Shown one piece after another: positions 14,156 to 24,985 of a stretch of 64,000 nt of DNA. The notes under the pieces are model-generated. The model did no database searches, was not told where the DNA came from, and saw only the letters and a program-made list of their open reading frames with translations. How positions within the stretch are numbered: position 1 is the stretch's first letter; each line of letters opens with the position of its first letter. The position numbers and the translations under genes were made by a program. This DNA comes from an uncultured SAR86 cluster bacterium (lineage in GTDB: Bacteria; Pseudomonadota; Gammaproteobacteria; Magnimaribacterales; AG-339-G14): contig CACPDB010000001.1 in NCBI GenBank assembly GCA_902632605.1, positions 246,693 through 310,692 on the forward strand, read 5' to 3'.

Positions 14156-14487
14156 TAACTAACCTTCATCCCTGGCAGCGCATCAGAATCAGGACCAACC
14201 AAATAAACACCACTGTCATCATTGCTAGCAGCTAAAATCATCCCTTCTGAAATACCAAATCTCATTTCTCGCGCTTTTAGATTATTGACACAAACTACCA
14301 TTCTATTTAATAAATTTTTGGGCTCATAATATTTTTTGATTCCTGCAAAAACTGTTTTCTCACCTAGTTCACCAAGATCTAATTTTAGTTGAACCAATTT
14401 ATCAGCTTCCTCGATTTCACTGACTTCTATTACTTTTGCAATTCGCAAATCAACTTTAAAAAAGTCATCAATAGTAATTTCATCCAC
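14155..14487 (-). CDS. MetRS C-terminal tRNA-binding (OB-fold) domain as a separate ORF
   Basis: 'ITIDDFFKVDLRIAKV', 'NNLKAREMRFGISEGMILAA'; GTG start; overlaps the metG end by 8 nt. Confidence 0.88.
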   Translation of the reverse strand: MDEITIDDFFKVDLRIAKVIEVSEIEEADKLVQLKLDLGELGEKTVFAGIKKYYEPKNLLNRMVVCVNNLKAREMRFGISEGMILAASNDDSGVYLVGPDSDALPGMKVS

Positions 14488-16129
14488 TTTTACTTGCCTC
14501 TATAAGATTCTCAATTTTTTCATCTTCAACCCTTTGAATTAAAGGTTTGAAAGATTGAATTTCATGATTTTTAATTGAAGTCTTAACATTATTAAAGTTA
14601 TCTTCAGCTAAATTCATGTAGTTCTTAATTTTAAATGCAGTTTTAGGGATTATAGGTTCTAAGCAAATATTTAATATCCTAAATAGATTCATACCAGTAC
14701 TAGATATTTTTATAACTTCTTTTTCGTTTATCTTTTCTTTTGCTAATACCCAGGGTTGATTTTGGTCAATATATTGATTTGCTGAATCTGCTAGTTTCAT
14801 AATTCGTTTACAGGCATTTGAATAATCTAGATTTAAATAGTCTTCAAATATCAATTTCGCTTCTTCTTTAAATTCATCAATGAGATTTTCTTCTAAATCT
14901 GAACCTAACTTATTATCATTTTTTTTCAAAAATTTTTGTACTCTGCTGGCAATATTAATGAACTTACCCACTAAATCAGTATTAACTTTTTTTTGAAAGT
15001 CTTTTAGATCAAAATCAATATCATCAATTTTATTAGTGAGTTTCGTAGCTAAATAATATCTCAAGTAATCAGAATCTAATTCTGCAGAATATTGGTCTGC
15101 GAGTAGAAAGTTACCTTTGGATTTGGACATTTTATTTCCATTCAGAGTTAAAAATCCATGAACAAAAACATTAGATGGTTTTTTGAATTTTGCTGCATGC
15201 AATAAAGCTGGCCAAAACAAAGCATGAAAATTAAGAATATCTTTTCCTATAAAGTGATAAATTTCATATCTTGAATCTTCACTCCAAAGATCTTTAGCAG
15301 TAGCTTTATTTTTTGAATCCTTTAGGAATTTTTCTAAAGTACCAATATAGCCAATAGGCGCATCAAGCCAAACATAAAAAAATTTATCTTCAAATCCTGG
15401 AATTTTAAATCCAAAGTAGGGTGCATCTCTGGATATATCCCAATCCATCAAGCCATCTTTAAACCATTCTTGAAGTTTGTTGATAACACTTTCTTGTAGA
15501 GAAGACTTATCTATCCAAGTTTTTATTTCGGCTTCTAATTTTGTTAAAGAGAAAAATAAATGTTCACTATCCTTTATTACTGGAGGTCTTTTAGAAAAAA
15601 CTGATAAGGGGTTTAATAATTCAGTAGCTTCGTACTTTGCTCCGCAATCGTCGCAGTTATCGCCGTATTGATTAGGAGCATTACATTTCGGACAATTACC
15701 TTGGACGTAACGATCGGCAAGAAACAATTTTTTATCTTCGTCGAAGAGTTGTTTTATATTTCGTTTGGCAACGTAACCATTTTCTAGAGCCGTATTGTAA
15801 ATAAGCTCACTATATTTTTTATTTTCTTCACTATGCGTTTGATAATAACAATCATGACTAACCTGAAAAGCTTCTAAGGTTTTTTTATGAGCTTTCATGT
15901 ATTTATCAACTAACTTTTCAGGAGAAATATTTTCTTCTTCAGCTTTCATCATTATCGGAGTTCCGTGGGCATCAGAAGCGCAAAGGTAAATACAATGATT
16001 TCCTATAATACGCTGAGACCTAACCCAAATATCAGTTTGAATATGTTCTAGTAAATGTCCGAAATGAAGAGGACCATTAGCATAGGGAAGGGCACTAGTA
16101 ACAATTAGTTCTTTTTTTTTCGTTGTCAT
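14480..16129 (-). CDS. metG: Methionyl-tRNA synthetase (catalytic and anticodon-binding part)
   Basis: 'TSALPYANGPLHFGH', Zn knuckle 'CPKC..CDDC', 'YVWLDAPIGY', 'KMSKS'. Confidence 0.97.
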   Translation of the reverse strand: MTTKKKELIVTSALPYANGPLHFGHLLEHIQTDIWVRSQRIIGNHCIYLCASDAHGTPIMMKAEEENISPEKLVDKYMKAHKKTLEAFQVSHDCYYQTHSEENKKYSELIYNTALENGYVAKRNIKQLFDEDKKLFLADRYVQGNCPKCNAPNQYGDNCDDCGAKYEATELLNPLSVFSKRPPVIKDSEHLFFSLTKLEAEIKTWIDKSSLQESVINKLQEWFKDGLMDWDISRDAPYFGFKIPGFEDKFFYVWLDAPIGYIGTLEKFLKDSKNKATAKDLWSEDSRYEIYHFIGKDILNFHALFWPALLHAAKFKKPSNVFVHGFLTLNGNKMSKSKGNFLLADQYSAELDSDYLRYYLATKLTNKIDDIDFDLKDFQKKVNTDLVGKFINIASRVQKFLKKNDNKLGSDLEENLIDEFKEEAKLIFEDYLNLDYSNACKRIMKLADSANQYIDQNQPWVLAKEKINEKEVIKISSTGMNLFRILNICLEPIIPKTAFKIKNYMNLAEDNFNNVKTSIKNHEIQSFKPLIQRVEDEKIENLIEASKSG

Positions 16130-21020: not shown

Positions 21021-21842
21021 TTGTTTAACTTTGAACCTTCAAATTATATAGAAAATGAAGCCAAAGATTCAGTTTTCTTTGTGATATTTGATCAAAGTAT
21101 TCTTTCATTTTCAAATGAAAATTTTATCAGGCCCATCACACATGATGAATTGACTTGGTCTTATATTGAAGAAAAAGAAAGACACTTTCTAGGATATTTA
21201 AATAAAAAACCGTGCTTTGTCATTCTTACTGAAAAAAATCAGTGTGAATTGGAACACTCAATTTTTATCGATATGCGTTCCGCTCTTGGTAGGATGCCTG
21301 ATCAGTTATTTGATGTTATTGCAAGGTCCATTCAAATCATAAATTGGTCAAAAGATCACCAATTTTGTGGATCTTGTGGAACTTCAATGCAAAGACACGA
21401 TAAGGAAAGAGCAATGGAATGTCCTAACTGCAAAGGACAATTAATTTACCCAAGGATTTCTCCGTGTGTTATCACTTTAATCTATAAAGAAAATGAGTTT
21501 TTGCTTGCACACAATAAGAATTTCCCTCCAAATTTCTATAGCACTCTTGCTGGTTTTATAGAACCAGGGGAATCCGTAGAAAGTGCGTTAAAAAGGGAAG
21601 TTAAGGAAGAAGTAAACATAGACATAAAAAATTTAGAGTATTTTTCAAGCCAAGCATGGCCATTTCCAAGTCAATTGATGTTGGGTTTTTATGCTGAGTA
21701 TGATTCTGGAGAATTAAAACCTGACGGAGAGGAAATTGACGATGCCCAATGGTTTACTGTTGAAAGCATGCCAACAAATATTCCTCCATCAAATATTTCA
21801 ATTTCTGGTAAATTGATAGAAAACTTTATCAAGAAAAAATAG
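21021..21842 (+). CDS. nudC: NADH pyrophosphatase / NAD-cap decapping enzyme
   Basis: 'CGSCG..CPNC', Nudix box '[21 protein letters not shown]', '[11 protein letters not shown]'. Confidence 0.95.
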
Positions 21843-21843
21843 T

Positions 21844-23859
21844 TTATTTGTTTCTTGGATCGTTAGCCGCTCTTTCAAAAGGTTTCTTTTCTTCAACAAT
21901 TTCTTTTTTTACTTCGATTTCTTTTTCTTTCTTAGGTCTACTTAATTTTCTTGGCGTTGCCTCTGTTTTAGGGATATTTTCTTTTTCTGAAGACTTTCTA
22001 CTATCTGATAGGTCTTTAGATTTTGATTTTTTTGTATTATCTAATTTTGGTTTTTTAGAAACTCTATTTTGATTTTCTTCTGATGAGTTTTGGGATTTTT
22101 TTTGTCTAGAATTAGTCTTTTTATTGTCCTTAAACTTATTAGAATTTGATTTATTTCTATTTTCCGATCTATTTCTATTTTTTTGATAAGACTTTTTCCC
22201 TTGATTTTTAGAATATCTAAGTTTCTTGTTGGGTTTTTGAGATTTCTTTTTTGGTTTGTTGATCTTAAAAATTTCTAAGATTTTTTTAAATAATGATTTT
22301 TTTGGTCTACGAGATCTTTTTATGTTTAAAAGAGGTTTTTCTTCAGAAGTTTTCCTTTTGCTCTTCTTTTCGAAATGATCAGCAACAGAAATACTCGAGC
22401 GATTTTTTTCAGGATCTATAACTTTTCCGTCTTTTATTCTGATGACTTCAAATCTTGAATCAGGTCTAGTTGCATCGGAAATTACGACCAGTTTTACATT
22501 ACTTCTAGCTTCGATATCATTTAAGCGAACTCTCCTTTCGTTCAGGAGTAAGGCTGACATATCGGGAGATACAACTGCCCTCACTTCACTGGTTTTTTCT
22601 TTACTAGACTCTTCTTCAAGCAATCTAAGAACTGCGGTAGAAAGGGTATTAATGTCTTGAGTCCATCTTTCTTTTAAAGACGATCTCAATCTTTGTCTGG
22701 ATAGTTCGAGTAATCCAAATCTAGAAATACGTCCAATTTGAACTCTTGCTCTATCTTCGGAAAGCGCTTCTCTCATAGCGTCTTCTACAGCACGCTTATT
22801 TTCAAGTTTCATCATATCGATGAAATCAATTACGACCAATCCACCGATATCTCTGAGTCTTAATTGCCTTCCTATTTCTTCACACGCTTCAATATTCGTT
22901 TTAACTGCAGTCTCTTCAATATCTTTACCGGAAGTAGCTTGTGAAGAGTTGATATCTATTGCTACCAGAGCCTCTGCATCATCTATTACGATTGATCCGC
23001 CAGAAGTAAGTTTTACTTCTCTTTGATAAGCAGTTTCAATTTGCGATTCAATTTGATATCTGGTGAATAGGGGAAGAGTATTTTCATACTTATTAAGAAT
23101 CATAGCTTGATCAGGCATAACACGCTCAACGAACTCGGATGCTTCTTCAAAAGCTTCTTCGGTATCTACCCAAATTTCCTCAATATCCTCTTTAAGATAA
23201 TCTCTCAAAGCTCTGATAATGATATCGCTCTCTTTAAAAATTAAGATTGGACTTTTCTTCAAAGTGTTTGCTTCGCTAATACCTTCCCAAACTCTTTGAA
23301 GATACTCTAAATCCCATTTTAGATCCTCAAGATCTTTTCCCTCTCCAGCGGTTCTTACTATTAATCCCATAGACTCGGGAACATTCAAAGATGAAATTCT
23401 TTCTTTAAGTTTATCTCTCTCTTTGCCTTCTAATCTTCTCGAAATTCCTGCTGCCTTTGGATTATTGGGCATTAAAACTAAGTATCTACCAGCAAGACTT
23501 ATATTGGTAGTAAGAGCCGCTCCTTTATTCCCTCTTTCGTCTTTTTCAACTTGAACAAGAATCTCTTGATCTTTCTTTAAACAATCTGCGACGGATAATC
23601 TTGAATTTCGGTTATTTTTTTCAGGATAAAATTGGGGAGAAATTTCTTTGAAAGGTAGAAACCCATGTCTTTCTGCTCCATAGTTTACAAAAGCTGCTCC
23701 TAAACTAGGTTCAATTCTACTAACTTTTCCTTTATAAATATTTCCTTTTCTACGGACCTCACTGATATTTTCAATATCCAAATCATACAAAAGGTTTCCT
23801 TCAGTAATTGCAACTCTCAGTTCCTCTGGTTGAGTAGCATTGATAAGCATTCTTTTCAT
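21844..23859 (-). CDS. rne: Ribonuclease E (short C-terminal domain, no Zn-link)
   Basis: 'MKRMLINATQPEELRVA', 'IDINS', 'GGLVVIDFIDM', amphipathic 'SLFKKILEIFK', C-terminal 'RAANDPRNK'. Confidence 0.97.
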   Translation of the reverse strand: MKRMLINATQPEELRVAITEGNLLYDLDIENISEVRRKGNIYKGKVSRIEPSLGAAFVNYGAERHGFLPFKEISPQFYPEKNNRNSRLSVADCLKKDQEILVQVEKDERGNKGAALTTNISLAGRYLVLMPNNPKAAGISRRLEGKERDKLKERISSLNVPESMGLIVRTAGEGKDLEDLKWDLEYLQRVWEGISEANTLKKSPILIFKESDIIIRALRDYLKEDIEEIWVDTEEAFEEASEFVERVMPDQAMILNKYENTLPLFTRYQIESQIETAYQREVKLTSGGSIVIDDAEALVAIDINSSQATSGKDIEETAVKTNIEACEEIGRQLRLRDIGGLVVIDFIDMMKLENKRAVEDAMREALSEDRARVQIGRISRFGLLELSRQRLRSSLKERWTQDINTLSTAVLRLLEEESSKEKTSEVRAVVSPDMSALLLNERRVRLNDIEARSNVKLVVISDATRPDSRFEVIRIKDGKVIDPEKNRSSISVADHFEKKSKRKTSEEKPLLNIKRSRRPKKSLFKKILEIFKINKPKKKSQKPNKKLRYSKNQGKKSYQKNRNRSENRNKSNSNKFKDNKKTNSRQKKSQNSSEENQNRVSKKPKLDNTKKSKSKDLSDSRKSSEKENIPKTEATPRKLSRPKKEKEIEVKKEIVEEKKPFERAANDPRNK

Positions 23860-23924
23860 AGTTTCACCTCATGAAAGTGCTTAAATATAAAATGTAATAA
23901 CCTCTACCTTGAGGCCTTGTTGAC

Positions 23925-23965
23925 AATAAATTTTAGGTTTTACGCCCTCGCTACCTAATTTTATT
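23925..23965 (-). promoter_or_regulatory. Stem-loop in the rne 5' leader
   Basis: AATAAATTTTAGGT (23925-23938) pairs imperfectly with ACCTAATTTTATT (23953-23965); small CCTC/GAGG hairpin at 23901-23914. Confidence 0.4.
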
Positions 23966-24070
23966 AAATTCTTATATTTAAACTAATTAAAATTCTTGCC
24001 CTAAAATATTTTTAATAAGGGTCTATGAAGCGTATTCTAGAGAAAAAATTCAAAGAAATCTAAATTATTT

Positions 24071-24985
24071 ATGTCCGAAGTAAAAAAAATAATTATTGAT
24101 GCAAACATTAAGGGTCAAAGGTTGGATAATTTCTTAATAAGTCACTTAAAAGGAGTCCCAAAATCGAAAATTTATTCAATTATCAGAAAAGGCGAAATCA
24201 GAATTAACAGCAAAAGAAAAAAACCATCATATAAATTAGTAGAAGGTGATGAGTTGAGAGTCCCGCCAATTATGACCTCTAAAAAAGAAAATCAATTTAT
24301 TCCTTCTAATGTCATTGCTTTACTAAAAGATGCGATCGTTGAAGAAAACGAGGATTATATTGCCATAAATAAACCCGAAGGTATTGCTTCGCATGGTGGT
24401 AGCGGGATATCTATTGGAGTCATAGAAGCTATTAGAAATTTCGGTAAAGCTTACAGAGATGCAAAATTGGTTCATAGATTAGATAAAGACACATCGGGTT
24501 GCCAATTAATTGCTAAAAATAATAATTTTTTAAGACGTTGTAATAAGTTAATTTCTGAAAGACAGGTTCAAAAAACTTATCAAGCTGTTGTCCATGGGAA
24601 CTGGATTCACAAGGATGGCTTGCATGAAATCAATATTAAAAAAAATAAGCTTATCGGCAAAGAAAGGATGGTAAAGATTTCAGAAGGAGGCAAAATTGCT
24701 AAAACTTTTTTTCAAGCCATTGAATCATCAGAACATTTTTCACTCGTTGAATGTGAACTAGTTACTGGACGAACACATCAATTGAGAGTTCATCTTTCTG
24801 AATTAGGTTTTCCAATCGTAGGAGACAAAAAGTATGGATTTAAAGAAAACCAGTTTACAAAAGTTTCAGGCCAAAAAAAAAGAATGTATCTTCACGCAAA
24901 CTCTTTTGTATCAGAAGATTTAAATATTTACCTAAAAGTAAAGTCTCCCAAAGAATTTAAAAAAATACTTAAAAATGATGAATAA
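24071..24985 (+). CDS. rluC: 23S rRNA pseudouridine synthase C
   Basis: S4 domain 'QRLDNFL..VPKSKIY', 'VHRLDKDTSG', 'TGRTHQLRVH'; divergent from rne. Confidence 0.94.
   Translation: MSEVKKIIIDANIKGQRLDNFLISHLKGVPKSKIYSIIRKGEIRINSKRKKPSYKLVEGDELRVPPIMTSKKENQFIPSNVIALLKDAIVEENEDYIAINKPEGIASHGGSGISIGVIEAIRNFGKAYRDAKLVHRLDKDTSGCQLIAKNNNFLRRCNKLISERQVQKTYQAVVHGNWIHKDGLHEINIKKNKLIGKERMVKISEGGKIAKTFFQAIESSEHFSLVECELVTGRTHQLRVHLSELGFPIVGDKKYGFKENQFTKVSGQKKRMYLHANSFVSEDLNIYLKVKSPKEFKKILKNDE

What the first reader, a model, noticed from the sequence alone, without database searches (positions are those of the whole stretch)
22636..22700. RNase E has cleanly lost the Zn-link
Seen: 'LSRQRLRSSLKERWTQDINTLSTAVLRLLEEE'. 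Established: E. coli has '[44 protein letters not shown]', where Cys404/Cys407 bind a shared Zn that holds the catalytic tetramer together. Here about 12 residues, including both Cys, are deleted in frame with intact flanks. Inference: a Zn-independent RNase E with a different oligomerisation solution, possibly an adaptation to trace-metal-poor seawater.
Basis: partly seen in the sequence, partly recalled or inferred. Interest (0 to 1): 0.68.

Follow-up and report, generated by a model that had tools for sequence, protein, structure and literature searches.

The report
SAR86 RNase E lacks zinc link
The main RNA-degrading enzyme (RNase E) of the abundant ocean bacteria SAR86 has lost, by an old 12-residue in-frame deletion kept across the sampled lineages, the zinc-binding loop that joins the enzyme's subunits in E. 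coli and that was present in every relative checked, so it must assemble without that zinc.

Summary
The ORF at window 21844..23859 (minus strand, 671 aa) is an RNase E orthologue. Its S1, 5'-sensor, catalytic and small domains are intact. Exactly 12 residues are missing compared with E. coli, including the whole CPxCxGxG Zn-link with Cys404 and Cys407.

It is not an artefact. The same junction occurs in 120 of 120 close metagenomic homologues and in 77 species-level SAR86 genomes, including the closed genome of the first cultured strain, HIMB1674. Contigs from three marine metagenomes cross it without an indel.

Every non-SAR86 gammaproteobacterial RNase E examined keeps the motif: 111 aligned genomes, and 148 of the 150 nearest 50%-identity cluster representatives.

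The new junction (ERWTQD..LST) is under strong purifying selection. No cysteine is conserved anywhere in the SAR86 catalytic domain. SAR86-specific fixed substitutions are concentrated in the linker and small domain (p = 5e-5).

My best reading is an ancestral excision of the Zn hairpin, offset by a remodelled, metal-free subunit interface.

The zinc-economy explanation is not supported. Neighbouring NudC and MetRS keep their Zn motifs, and Prochlorococcus and other marine oligotrophs keep the Zn-link.

I found no published description. This is a new variant of a known enzyme, of moderate interest, and it can now be tested in culture.

The parts
21844..23859 (-). rne gene: RNase E orthologue, 671 aa
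   Evidence: ORF. PDB RNase E hit at E = 7e-166. Pfam S1, RNase_E_G and RNase_E_G_Thio domains. NCBIfam TIGR00757 scores 500 bits against a cut-off of 326, and the best equivalog is RNase E PRK10811.
22609..22704 (-). Linker region, residues 386-417 (LSRQRLRSSLKERWTQDINTLSTAVLRLLEEE). It replaces the E. coli segment 388-431 and lacks the Zn-link.
   Evidence: Across 77 SAR86 species there are 76 distinct DNA sequences but only 17 peptides.
22663..22668 (-). Deletion junction, codons R398-W399. Twelve residues, including CPxCxGxG, are missing here relative to other gammaproteobacteria. Trp399 is invariant in SAR86.
   Evidence: Metagenome contigs cross the junction without an indel.
22423..22662 (-). 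Retained small domain (about residues 400-479). It carries SAR86-fixed substitutions at otherwise conserved positions (E. coli numbering: R414Q, S418T, L421T, P444S, A448S, K455R, T481D, H483R).
   Evidence: Pfam PF20833 matches residues 402-474, but only profile positions 13-85 of 86. AlphaFold pLDDT is 82-87 over residues 410-460. Substitution enrichment is 8 of 22 positions versus 11 of 222.
22669..23859 (-). Large catalytic domain (S1, 5' sensor, RNase H-like, DNase I-like). All key residues are invariant: F57, F67, K112, V128, R169, T170, D302, N304, D345 in window numbering. The last three correspond to E. coli D303, N305 and D346.
   Evidence: Invariant columns of alignments A2 and A3.
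21844..22422 (-). Short Lys/Asn-rich non-catalytic C-terminal region. It has an amphipathic MTS-like segment (residues 518-531, RPKKSLFKKILEIF) and a C-terminal ERAANDPRNK (NDPR motif).
   Evidence: Hydrophobic-moment scan and motif census. The NDPR motif is described for Oceanospirillales and Pseudomonadales RNase E in PMC4435900.
24071..24985 (+). rluC-like pseudouridine synthase, transcribed divergently from rne. My recollection is that E. coli has the same arrangement, which supports orthology.
   Evidence: Pfam PseudoU_synth_2 and S4 domains. The comparison with the E. coli gene order rests on my own knowledge and was not checked here.
21021..21842 (+). nudC (NADH pyrophosphatase), which keeps its Cys4 zinc ribbon. 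It is convergent with rne, and only 1 nt separates the two stop codons.
   Evidence: Pfam Zn_ribbon_NUD and NUDIX domains. Two CxxC motifs.

Best explanation
In an ancestor of the sampled SAR86 lineages (order Magnimaribacterales), a 36-nt in-frame deletion removed the whole Zn-link hairpin of RNase E (about E. coli residues 399-411, CPxCxGxG). The last helix of the DNase I-like domain now joins the small domain directly, through a short junction conserved as ..ERW(T/M)QD(I/V)xxLST...

Shown: the deletion is real and restricted to SAR86. It is present in both deep branches of the SAR86 RNase E tree. The junction is under strong purifying selection. The rest of the enzyme is intact: S1 domain, 5'-monophosphate sensor, Mg-binding catalytic Asp/Asn/Asp, small domain, an MTS-like amphipathic helix and the NDPR tail. 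No cysteine is conserved in the catalytic domain.

Inferred: the enzyme is the cell's working RNase E. It still forms the principal dimer, and probably the tetramer, because the cross-subunit 5' sensor and the small domain are kept. The protomer-protomer contact is metal-free. It is supplied by the large-domain interface plus a remodelled linker and small domain, possibly with invariant Trp399 packing where the Zn site used to be.

Why the loss was fixed is unknown. I favour deletion during genome streamlining, made tolerable by compensating substitutions. A possible side benefit is the removal of a Zn-thiolate site that is labile to oxidation and copper. I favour this over zinc economy.
For: Identity and integrity of the enzyme. 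The invariant columns include R169, T170, D302, N304 and D345.

The deletion.

Distribution:
- 120 of 120 close homologues carry it.
- 43 of 43 SAR86 loci carry it, as do the 64-65% identical relatives L082 and L083.
- 77 GTDB species carry it, including the closed HIMB1674 genome.
- SAR86 RNase E is monophyletic with two deep clades, both deleted.
- All 111 aligned non-SAR86 gammaproteobacterial sequences keep C..C.G.G.
- 148 of the 150 nearest 50%-cluster representatives among 1.84 billion keep it. One exception is the SAR86 representative and the other is a frameshifted sequence.

Selection: the 32-codon linker shows 1052 synonymous versus 289 non-synonymous codon differences. W399 shows 0/0, D402 60/0 and T408 63/0 (synonymous/non-synonymous). 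Natural variants in metagenome contigs fall almost entirely on third codon positions. A metatranscriptome contig covers part of the gene.

No substitute metal site: no conserved Cys, and 13 of 61 SAR86 catalytic domains have zero Cys.

Co-evolution: SAR86-fixed changes occupy 8 of 22 conserved linker and small-domain positions, against 11 of 222 in the large domain (Fisher p = 4.8e-5).

Literature:
- Mutating or deleting the motif in E. coli prevents tetramer formation and lowers activity (PMC2631609).
- Rne peptides that lack the Zn-link and small domain still cleave correctly and support growth (PMC7849360). Loss is therefore survivable and can be compensated.
Against: There is no direct evidence on oligomeric state or metal content.

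The AlphaFold monomer model has pLDDT below 50 over residues 380-401. It superposes on E. coli chains only at TM 0.5-0.68, so it neither supports nor contradicts the geometry.

The enrichment of substitutions in the small domain could reflect relaxed constraint after loss of oligomerisation rather than compensation.

I could not check whether SAR86 also encodes RNase G or a second Rne.

I could not assign all four SAR86 families. One of them, CHAB-I-7 / TMED112, was not positively identified among the loci. 'Ancestral to the whole order' is therefore an inference from two deep clades.
Confidence: 0.6

Rival explanations
1. Zinc economy. The Zn-link was lost because dispensing with a structural Zn is advantageous in Zn-poor surface seawater.
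For: SAR86 lives mainly in the oligotrophic surface ocean (PMC11582366). The loss removes one Zn per two protomers. No replacement Cys site exists.
Against: The genes next to rne keep their Zn sites. NudC keeps its Zn ribbon, and MetRS keeps two CxxC motifs.

Prochlorococcus MED4, an extreme oligotroph, keeps the Zn-link (PMC3113571). The other marine gammaproteobacteria sampled keep it too.

Two genera of Magnimaribacteraceae live below the photic zone, and all sampled members of the clade that contains HIMB1674 have the deletion.

The Zn saved per cell would, I estimate, be a tiny part of the cell's zinc quota. This is my own estimate and was not measured.
Confidence: 0.1
2. Loss of quaternary structure. 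SAR86 RNase E works as a monomer or a weak RNA-scaffolded 'pseudodimer' with lower specific activity. A slow-growing cell with a 1-1.6 Mb genome tolerates this, and the small-domain changes reflect relaxed or altered constraint.
For: In E. coli, deleting or mutating the motif prevents tetramer formation. Truncated Rne lacking the Zn-link and small domain still supports growth. Substitutions are concentrated in the small domain. The linker is poorly modelled.
Against: The small domain is retained, folds confidently in the model (pLDDT 82-87) and is conserved within SAR86. It would be expected to decay or be deleted in a streamlined genome if it were useless.

The junction residues are under very strong purifying selection.

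The 5'-sensor residues, which act across subunits in E. coli (PMC3997798), are invariant.
Confidence: 0.22
3. Artefact or decaying copy. The deletion is an assembly error, or the gene is a degenerating paralogue while a canonical rne lies elsewhere.
For: None was found. The only gap is that whole SAR86 genomes could not be scanned for a second Rne/Rng gene.
Against: The same junction is found in 77 species-level genomes (single-cell, short-read and long-read MAGs, and a closed isolate genome), in 120 metagenome proteins and in contigs of three runs.

Synonymous changes far outnumber non-synonymous ones, and all catalytic residues are invariant. The gene sits next to a divergent rluC; the comparison with E. 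coli gene order is from my own knowledge.

No SAR86-like Zn-link-bearing RNase E appears among the 150 nearest representatives of 1.84 billion proteins.
Confidence: 0.02

Closest known systems
E. coli RNase E catalytic half (PDB 2BX2, 2C0B, 2VMK, 2VRT, 5F6C, 6G63)
   Same: About 59% identity over residues 1-479 by my count from the alignment. The domain order is the same: S1, 5' sensor, RNase H-like, DNase I-like, small domain. The catalytic and 5'-sensor residues are identical.
   Different: The 12 residues that form the Zn-link (CPRCSGTG and flanks) are absent. The C-terminal scaffold is much shorter, about 190 aa against about 530 aa. The NCBIfam RNase E equivalog cut-off is not reached (656 versus 908 bits).
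Engineered E. coli Zn-link mutants, deletions and Rne-395 (Callaghan 2005b and Caruthers 2006, as cited in PMC2631609 and PMC7849360)
   Same: They lack a functional Zn-link. They show that RNase E chemistry and cleavage-site specificity survive without it.
   Different: They are laboratory constructs with lost tetramerisation and sharply reduced activity. Rne-395 also lacks the small domain. The SAR86 protein is a natural form that has persisted across at least 77 species, keeps the small domain and carries lineage-specific substitutions around the junction.
Cyanobacterial RNase E (Synechocystis, Prochlorococcus)
   Same: A compact RNase E from abundant marine and aquatic bacteria, with a short, divergent C-terminal region.
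   Different: The arrangement is reciprocal. Cyanobacteria keep the Zn-link but lack the E. coli-type small domain (PMC10989914; PMC3113571). SAR86 keeps the small domain but lacks the Zn-link.
Plant chloroplast RNase E/G-like proteins
   Same: A natural departure from the canonical CPxCxGxG motif.
   Different: Plants keep a cysteine-rich variant, CxCCH(A/G)(I/T)G, which is presumed still to bind metal (PMC2486463). SAR86 has no cysteines there at all.
Archaeal FAU-1 / RNase W (RNase E/G-like domain fused to DUF402)
   Same: A member of the RNase E/G superfamily without a Zn-link. Weak fold matches to 8wo8 and 8rza.
   Different: The relationship is very distant (21-23% identity over about 210 residues). 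The DNase I subdomain is atrophied, the C-terminal domain is different and the protein is mainly trimeric (PMC4432964). It is not an RNase E orthologue.
Cys-minus (C-) paralogues of Zn-ribbon ribosomal proteins such as L31, L36 and S14 (my own knowledge, not tested here)
   Same: A structural Zn-Cys4 site has been lost from an otherwise conserved housekeeping protein.
   Different: As I recall, those are duplicated genes that are switched on under Zn starvation. Here a single orthologue has been permanently altered, and there is no evidence of Zn-responsive regulation.

Membership tests
RNase E (Rne) orthologue, RNase E/G family | S1 RNA-binding domain plus the RNase_E_G catalytic domain | tested here: met
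   Pfam PF00575 (E = 2e-8) and PF10150 (E = 2.5e-98). TIGR00757 scores 500.5 bits against a cut-off of 325.95.
RNase E (Rne) orthologue, RNase E/G family | Catalytic Mg-binding residues Asp303, Asn305 and Asp346 (E. coli numbering) | tested here: met
   D302, N304 and D345 (window numbering) are invariant columns in the 23- and 121-sequence alignments.
RNase E (Rne) orthologue, RNase E/G family | 5'-monophosphate sensor pocket (Arg169, Thr170, Val128) | tested here: met
   R169, T170 and V128 are invariant.
RNase E (Rne) orthologue, RNase E/G family | Zn-link motif CPxCxGxG between the large and small domains | tested here: not met
   A 12-residue gap covers the motif. The Pfam small-domain match starts at profile position 13. 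No Cys is conserved in the SAR86 catalytic domain.
RNase E (Rne) orthologue, RNase E/G family | Small (thioredoxin-like) domain after the linker | tested here: met
   PF20833 scores 48.3 bits against a cut-off of 26.8, over residues 402-474. The region is confidently folded in the AlphaFold model.
RNase E (Rne) orthologue, RNase E/G family | NCBIfam equivalog score for RNase E (PRK10811, cut-off 908 bits) | tested here: not met
   The score is 656 bits, matching model positions 1-512 of 1068. The shortfall comes from the short C-terminal region. It is still twice the RNase G score.
RNase E (Rne) orthologue, RNase E/G family | Gammaproteobacterial non-catalytic region with a membrane-targeting amphipathic helix and conserved microdomains | tested here: inconclusive
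   The highest hydrophobic moment is at residues 518-531, RPKKSLFKKILEIF. The C-terminal RA(A/S)NDPRNK is conserved in most complete SAR86 sequences and matches the 'NDPR' motif of PMC4435900. Membrane binding was not tested.
RNase E (Rne) orthologue, RNase E/G family | Homotetramer (dimer of dimers) | not testable with these tools
   Only a monomer model could be built, and its linker is of low confidence.
RNase G (Rng/CafA) | NCBIfam equivalog PRK11712 (cut-off 594 bits); about 490 aa with no long C-terminal region | tested here: not met
   The score is 327 bits, below 594. The protein has an RNase E-type C-terminal region and lies next to a divergent rluC.
Zinc-sparing C- paralogue systems | Paired C+ and C- gene copies with Zn-responsive (Zur) control | not tested
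   Whole SAR86 genomes could not be scanned. No second copy appeared among the nearest representatives.

The most novel reading that the evidence does not exclude
SAR86 RNase E assembles its principal dimer and tetramer through a new, metal-free interface. That interface is built from the shortened linker, with invariant Trp399 at or near the two-fold axis, and a co-evolved small domain. This makes the cell's central RNA-decay enzyme insensitive to Zn supply, thiol oxidation and copper. It would be the first natural alternative to the Zn-link in the RNase E/G family, and the reciprocal of the cyanobacterial design, which has a Zn-link but no small domain.
Probability: 0.35. Interest if true: 0.62.

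Novelty: new variant of a known kind. Interest (0 to 1): 0.5.

Why it matters
The papers read here treat the Zn-link as a conserved organiser of RNase E quaternary structure and of the active site. In E. coli, mutating or deleting it prevents tetramer formation and sharply reduces activity.

Here one of the most abundant bacterial orders in the surface ocean has removed it cleanly and kept the result under strong selection. This shows that the family has a second, metal-free way of joining the large and small domains.

It provides a natural set of candidate compensating substitutions: Trp399 and eight small-domain or linker positions. These could show what the Zn-link really contributes, whether geometry, allostery or redox and metal sensitivity.

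SAR86 now has a cultured representative with a closed genome (HIMB1674) that carries the same deletion, so the question can be tested directly. The finding also shows that annotation rules which scan for CPxCxGxG would miss or mis-score these orthologues.

Tried and rejected
1. Structure. The AlphaFold2 monomer model, built on a 121-sequence alignment, had mean pLDDT 74.7 and pTM 0.53. Residues 380-401 were below 50. Foldseek finds E. coli RNase E chains, but at TM 0.5-0.68 and rmsd 13-15 A because of domain orientation. This says nothing useful about linker geometry or oligomerisation.

2. Family assignment. I tried to place the loci in the four SAR86 families using the supplements of PMC11582366. 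Only one anchor was obtained: genus CACNYO01 belongs to family AG-339-G14. CHAB-I-7 / TMED112 was not positively identified.

3. RNase G or a second Rne in SAR86. The tools return only the best 80 loci by similarity to the query and cannot scan one named genome, so this was not tested. The paper's supplements do not mention rne, rng, K08300 or K08301.

4. The rne 5'-UTR autoregulatory element. There was no Rfam match in 23800-24120 at E <= 1.

5. The first homologue search returned only 98-100% identical sequences. A profile search and the exhaustive representative search were needed to gain diversity.

6. Zn-link-less RNase E/G outside gammaproteobacterial RNase E. Only the top 150 of 21,228 representatives are visible, so a family-wide census was not possible. 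The literature searches found no natural bacterial case.

7. Assembly artefact and pseudogene readings were considered and rejected (see the rival explanations).
Full report
**Observation**

The window carries a 671-aa ORF on the minus strand at 21844..23859.

A sequence search against solved structures aligns residues 1-479 with E. coli RNase E 1-493 at E = 7e-166. The only sizeable gap is 12 residues between ..SL.E and ..D..SLS..LRL.EEE. That gap removes the stretch containing CPRCSGTG, and so Cys404 and Cys407. MAFFT alignments with 22 and 120 other RNase E sequences show the same 12-column gap. The junction lies at codons R398-W399, nt 22663-22668.

**What the gene is**

Pfam finds the S1, RNase_E_G and small (thioredoxin-like) domains. 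The small-domain match begins at profile position 13 of 86, so the part of the model that covers the Zn-link is missing. NCBIfam places the protein with RNase E (656 bits) well above RNase G (327 bits). The general Rne/Rng model passes its cut-off. The RNase E equivalog cut-off (908 bits) is not reached, because the C-terminal scaffold is short.

The residues that define activity are invariant across all alignments:
- S1 residues F57, F67 and K112.
- 5'-sensor residues V128, R169 and T170.
- Catalytic residues D302, N304 and D345, which are E. coli D303, N305 and D346.

A pseudouridine synthase of the RluC type is transcribed divergently just upstream. From my own knowledge this is also the E. 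coli arrangement. This is the rne orthologue, not a stray paralogue.

**Source organism**

The window has 32.9% G+C. The closest genome records, at 95-98% protein identity, are SAR86 single-cell genomes and MAGs.

**Not an artefact, and how far it extends**

All 120 best hits in the 5.8-billion-protein collection carry the identical linker. These hits are 98-100% identical and come from many independent ENA, JGI, NCBI and Tara assemblies.

In species-representative genomes, 43 of 43 SAR86 loci at 76-98% identity have the deletion. Two deeper relatives at 64-65% identity have it too.

A degenerate DNA pattern for the junction found 78 places in 185,579 species genomes. Of these, 77 sit in an RNase E gene of a SAR86 or unclassified marine gammaproteobacterial genome, and one is a chance match.

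Among the 77 is the closed chromosome of Magnimaribacter mokuoloeensis HIMB1674, the first cultured SAR86 (CP151794; PMC11582366).

Logan contigs from three marine metagenomes cross the junction with no inserted or deleted letters. A metatranscriptome contig covers part of the gene.

In a neighbour-joining tree the SAR86 RNase E sequences are monophyletic and split into two deep clades, and both carry the deletion. One clade holds the window, AG-339-G14 and genus CACNYO01 (family RedeBAC7D11). The other holds HIMB1674 (family Magnimaribacteraceae). The deletion therefore most likely predates the diversification of the order. I could not positively identify a CHAB-I-7 / TMED112 member, so that family remains unchecked.

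**Specific to SAR86**

All 111 aligned non-SAR86 gammaproteobacterial sequences from these searches keep CPRCxGxG. They include marine groups such as Porticoccaceae, Spongiibacteraceae, Pseudohongiellaceae, Methylophagaceae and Alcanivoracaceae.

An exhaustive HMMER pass over 1.84 billion cluster representatives gave 21,228 family members. Of the 150 nearest, 148 keep C..C.G.G. One exception is the SAR86 cluster representative (65% identity). The other is a frameshifted high-GC sequence. None of the Zn-link-bearing representatives looks like a SAR86 protein.

The papers read here describe the CxxC as well conserved in alpha- and gammaproteobacteria (PMC12510024) and present in cyanobacteria including Prochlorococcus (PMC3113571, PMC10989914). 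Plants carry a Cys-rich variant (PMC2486463). No paper in the library combines SAR86 with RNase E. The HIMB1674 genome paper mentions neither ribonuclease nor zinc. As far as I can tell, the loss has not been described.

**Evidence that the altered protein is functional**

Across 77 species the 32-codon linker region has 76 distinct DNA sequences but only 17 peptides. There are 1052 synonymous and 289 non-synonymous codon differences from the window. W399 never changes. D402, L406, S407 and T408 show 42-63 synonymous and no non-synonymous differences.

No cysteine is conserved anywhere in the SAR86 catalytic domain, and 13 of 61 sequences have none at all. The only conserved histidine is shared with all RNase E. 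There is therefore no replacement Cys/His metal site.

I looked at positions that are at least 90% conserved in other gammaproteobacteria and where SAR86 has fixed a different residue. These make up 11 of 222 positions in the large domain, but 8 of 22 in the linker and small domain (Fisher p = 4.8e-5). In E. coli numbering the eight are R414Q, S418T, L421T, P444S, A448S, K455R, T481D and H483R.

**How it most likely works**

In E. coli one Zn is shared by the CPxCxGxG motifs of the two protomers of the principal dimer, and the small domains join two dimers. Mutating or deleting the motif prevents tetramer formation and lowers activity (PMC2631609, PMC3997798). However, Rne peptides lacking both the Zn-link and the small domain still cut at the right sites and support growth (PMC7849360). 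Loss of the Zn-link is therefore survivable and open to compensation.

SAR86 keeps the small domain, the cross-subunit 5' sensor and a strongly constrained junction with an invariant tryptophan. From this I infer that the enzyme still forms the dimer, and probably the tetramer, through a metal-free, remodelled interface (confidence about 0.6).

The main rival is that it has become a monomer or a weak dimer with lower activity, tolerated by a slow-growing streamlined cell (about 0.2).

The AlphaFold monomer model cannot decide between them. Its linker is of low confidence, and the domain orientation differs from the crystal chains.

**Why it was lost**

The zinc-economy idea is not supported by what could be tested:
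- The gene abutting rne, nudC, keeps its Cys4 Zn ribbon, and MetRS in the same window keeps two CxxC motifs.
- Prochlorococcus and the other marine gammaproteobacteria sampled keep the Zn-link.
- All sampled members of the clade that contains HIMB1674 carry the deletion, and the paper reports that two genera of that family live below the photic zone.

I favour a deletion fixed during genome reduction and then compensated. Removing a thiolate site that is labile to oxidation and copper may have been a side benefit, but that part is speculation.

**Verdict**

This is a new variant of a well-known enzyme. It is restricted to, and apparently general in, one very abundant marine order, and it can now be tested in a cultured strain.

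Noticed in passing
window 21842-21844: nudC (plus strand, ends at 21842) and rne (minus strand, stop codon ends at 21844) converge with a single nucleotide between their stop codons. This leaves no room for separate terminators. It illustrates how tightly packed this genome is.
   Followed up: no
window 21844-22422 (RNase E residues 480-671): The non-catalytic tail is only about 190 aa and is extremely rich in Lys and Asn (37% K+N). It has an amphipathic MTS-like segment, RPKKSLFKKILEIF, at residues 518-531. It ends in ERAANDPRNK, and most complete SAR86 sequences end in RA(A/S)NDPRNK. This matches the 'NDPR' motif that Ait-Bara and Carpousis found only in Oceanospirillales and Pseudomonadales, which fits a placement of SAR86 near those orders.
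   Followed up: partly
proteins P0022, P0029, P0030, P0031, P0072 (homologues on 50 kb to 1 Mb ENA contigs): Several near-identical RNase E calls from very long contigs are truncated at 544-561 aa, inside the Lys-rich tail (...GKKALPKK*). The usual form is 671-673 aa. This looks like homopolymer frameshift errors in long-read assemblies rather than real variants.
   Followed up: partly
window 23860-24070: The rne-rluC intergenic region is 211 nt and gives no match to any Rfam family, including the enterobacterial rne 5'-UTR autoregulatory element. If rne is autoregulated here, a different leader is used.
   Followed up: partly
L083 / L163 (NZVJ01000119.1, 'Rhodospirillaceae bacterium NAT66'): This MAG is labelled as an alphaproteobacterium, yet it carries a SAR86-type RNase E with the deletion (64% identity to the window; it groups with the HIMB1674 clade). 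The record label, or the binning of this contig, is probably wrong.
   Followed up: partly
P0253 (601 aa, representative library): A high-GC RNase E representative loses similarity exactly at the Zn-link (aligned 1-397) and continues as ...GGNQLRGLPALHRPGHHP.... This is a frameshifted gene call, not a second Zn-link-less lineage.
   Followed up: partly
window 14480-16129 and 21021-21842: MetRS keeps two CxxC motifs and NudC keeps its Zn-ribbon domain, so this genome has not purged structural Zn sites in general.
   Followed up: yes
SAR86 RNase E alignment, E. coli positions 54 and 356: Outside the linker and small domain, two positions are changed in every aligned SAR86 sequence and 100% conserved in the other gammaproteobacteria sampled: E54G in the S1 domain and Q356K in the DNase I-like domain. 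Their structural role was not examined.
   Followed up: no
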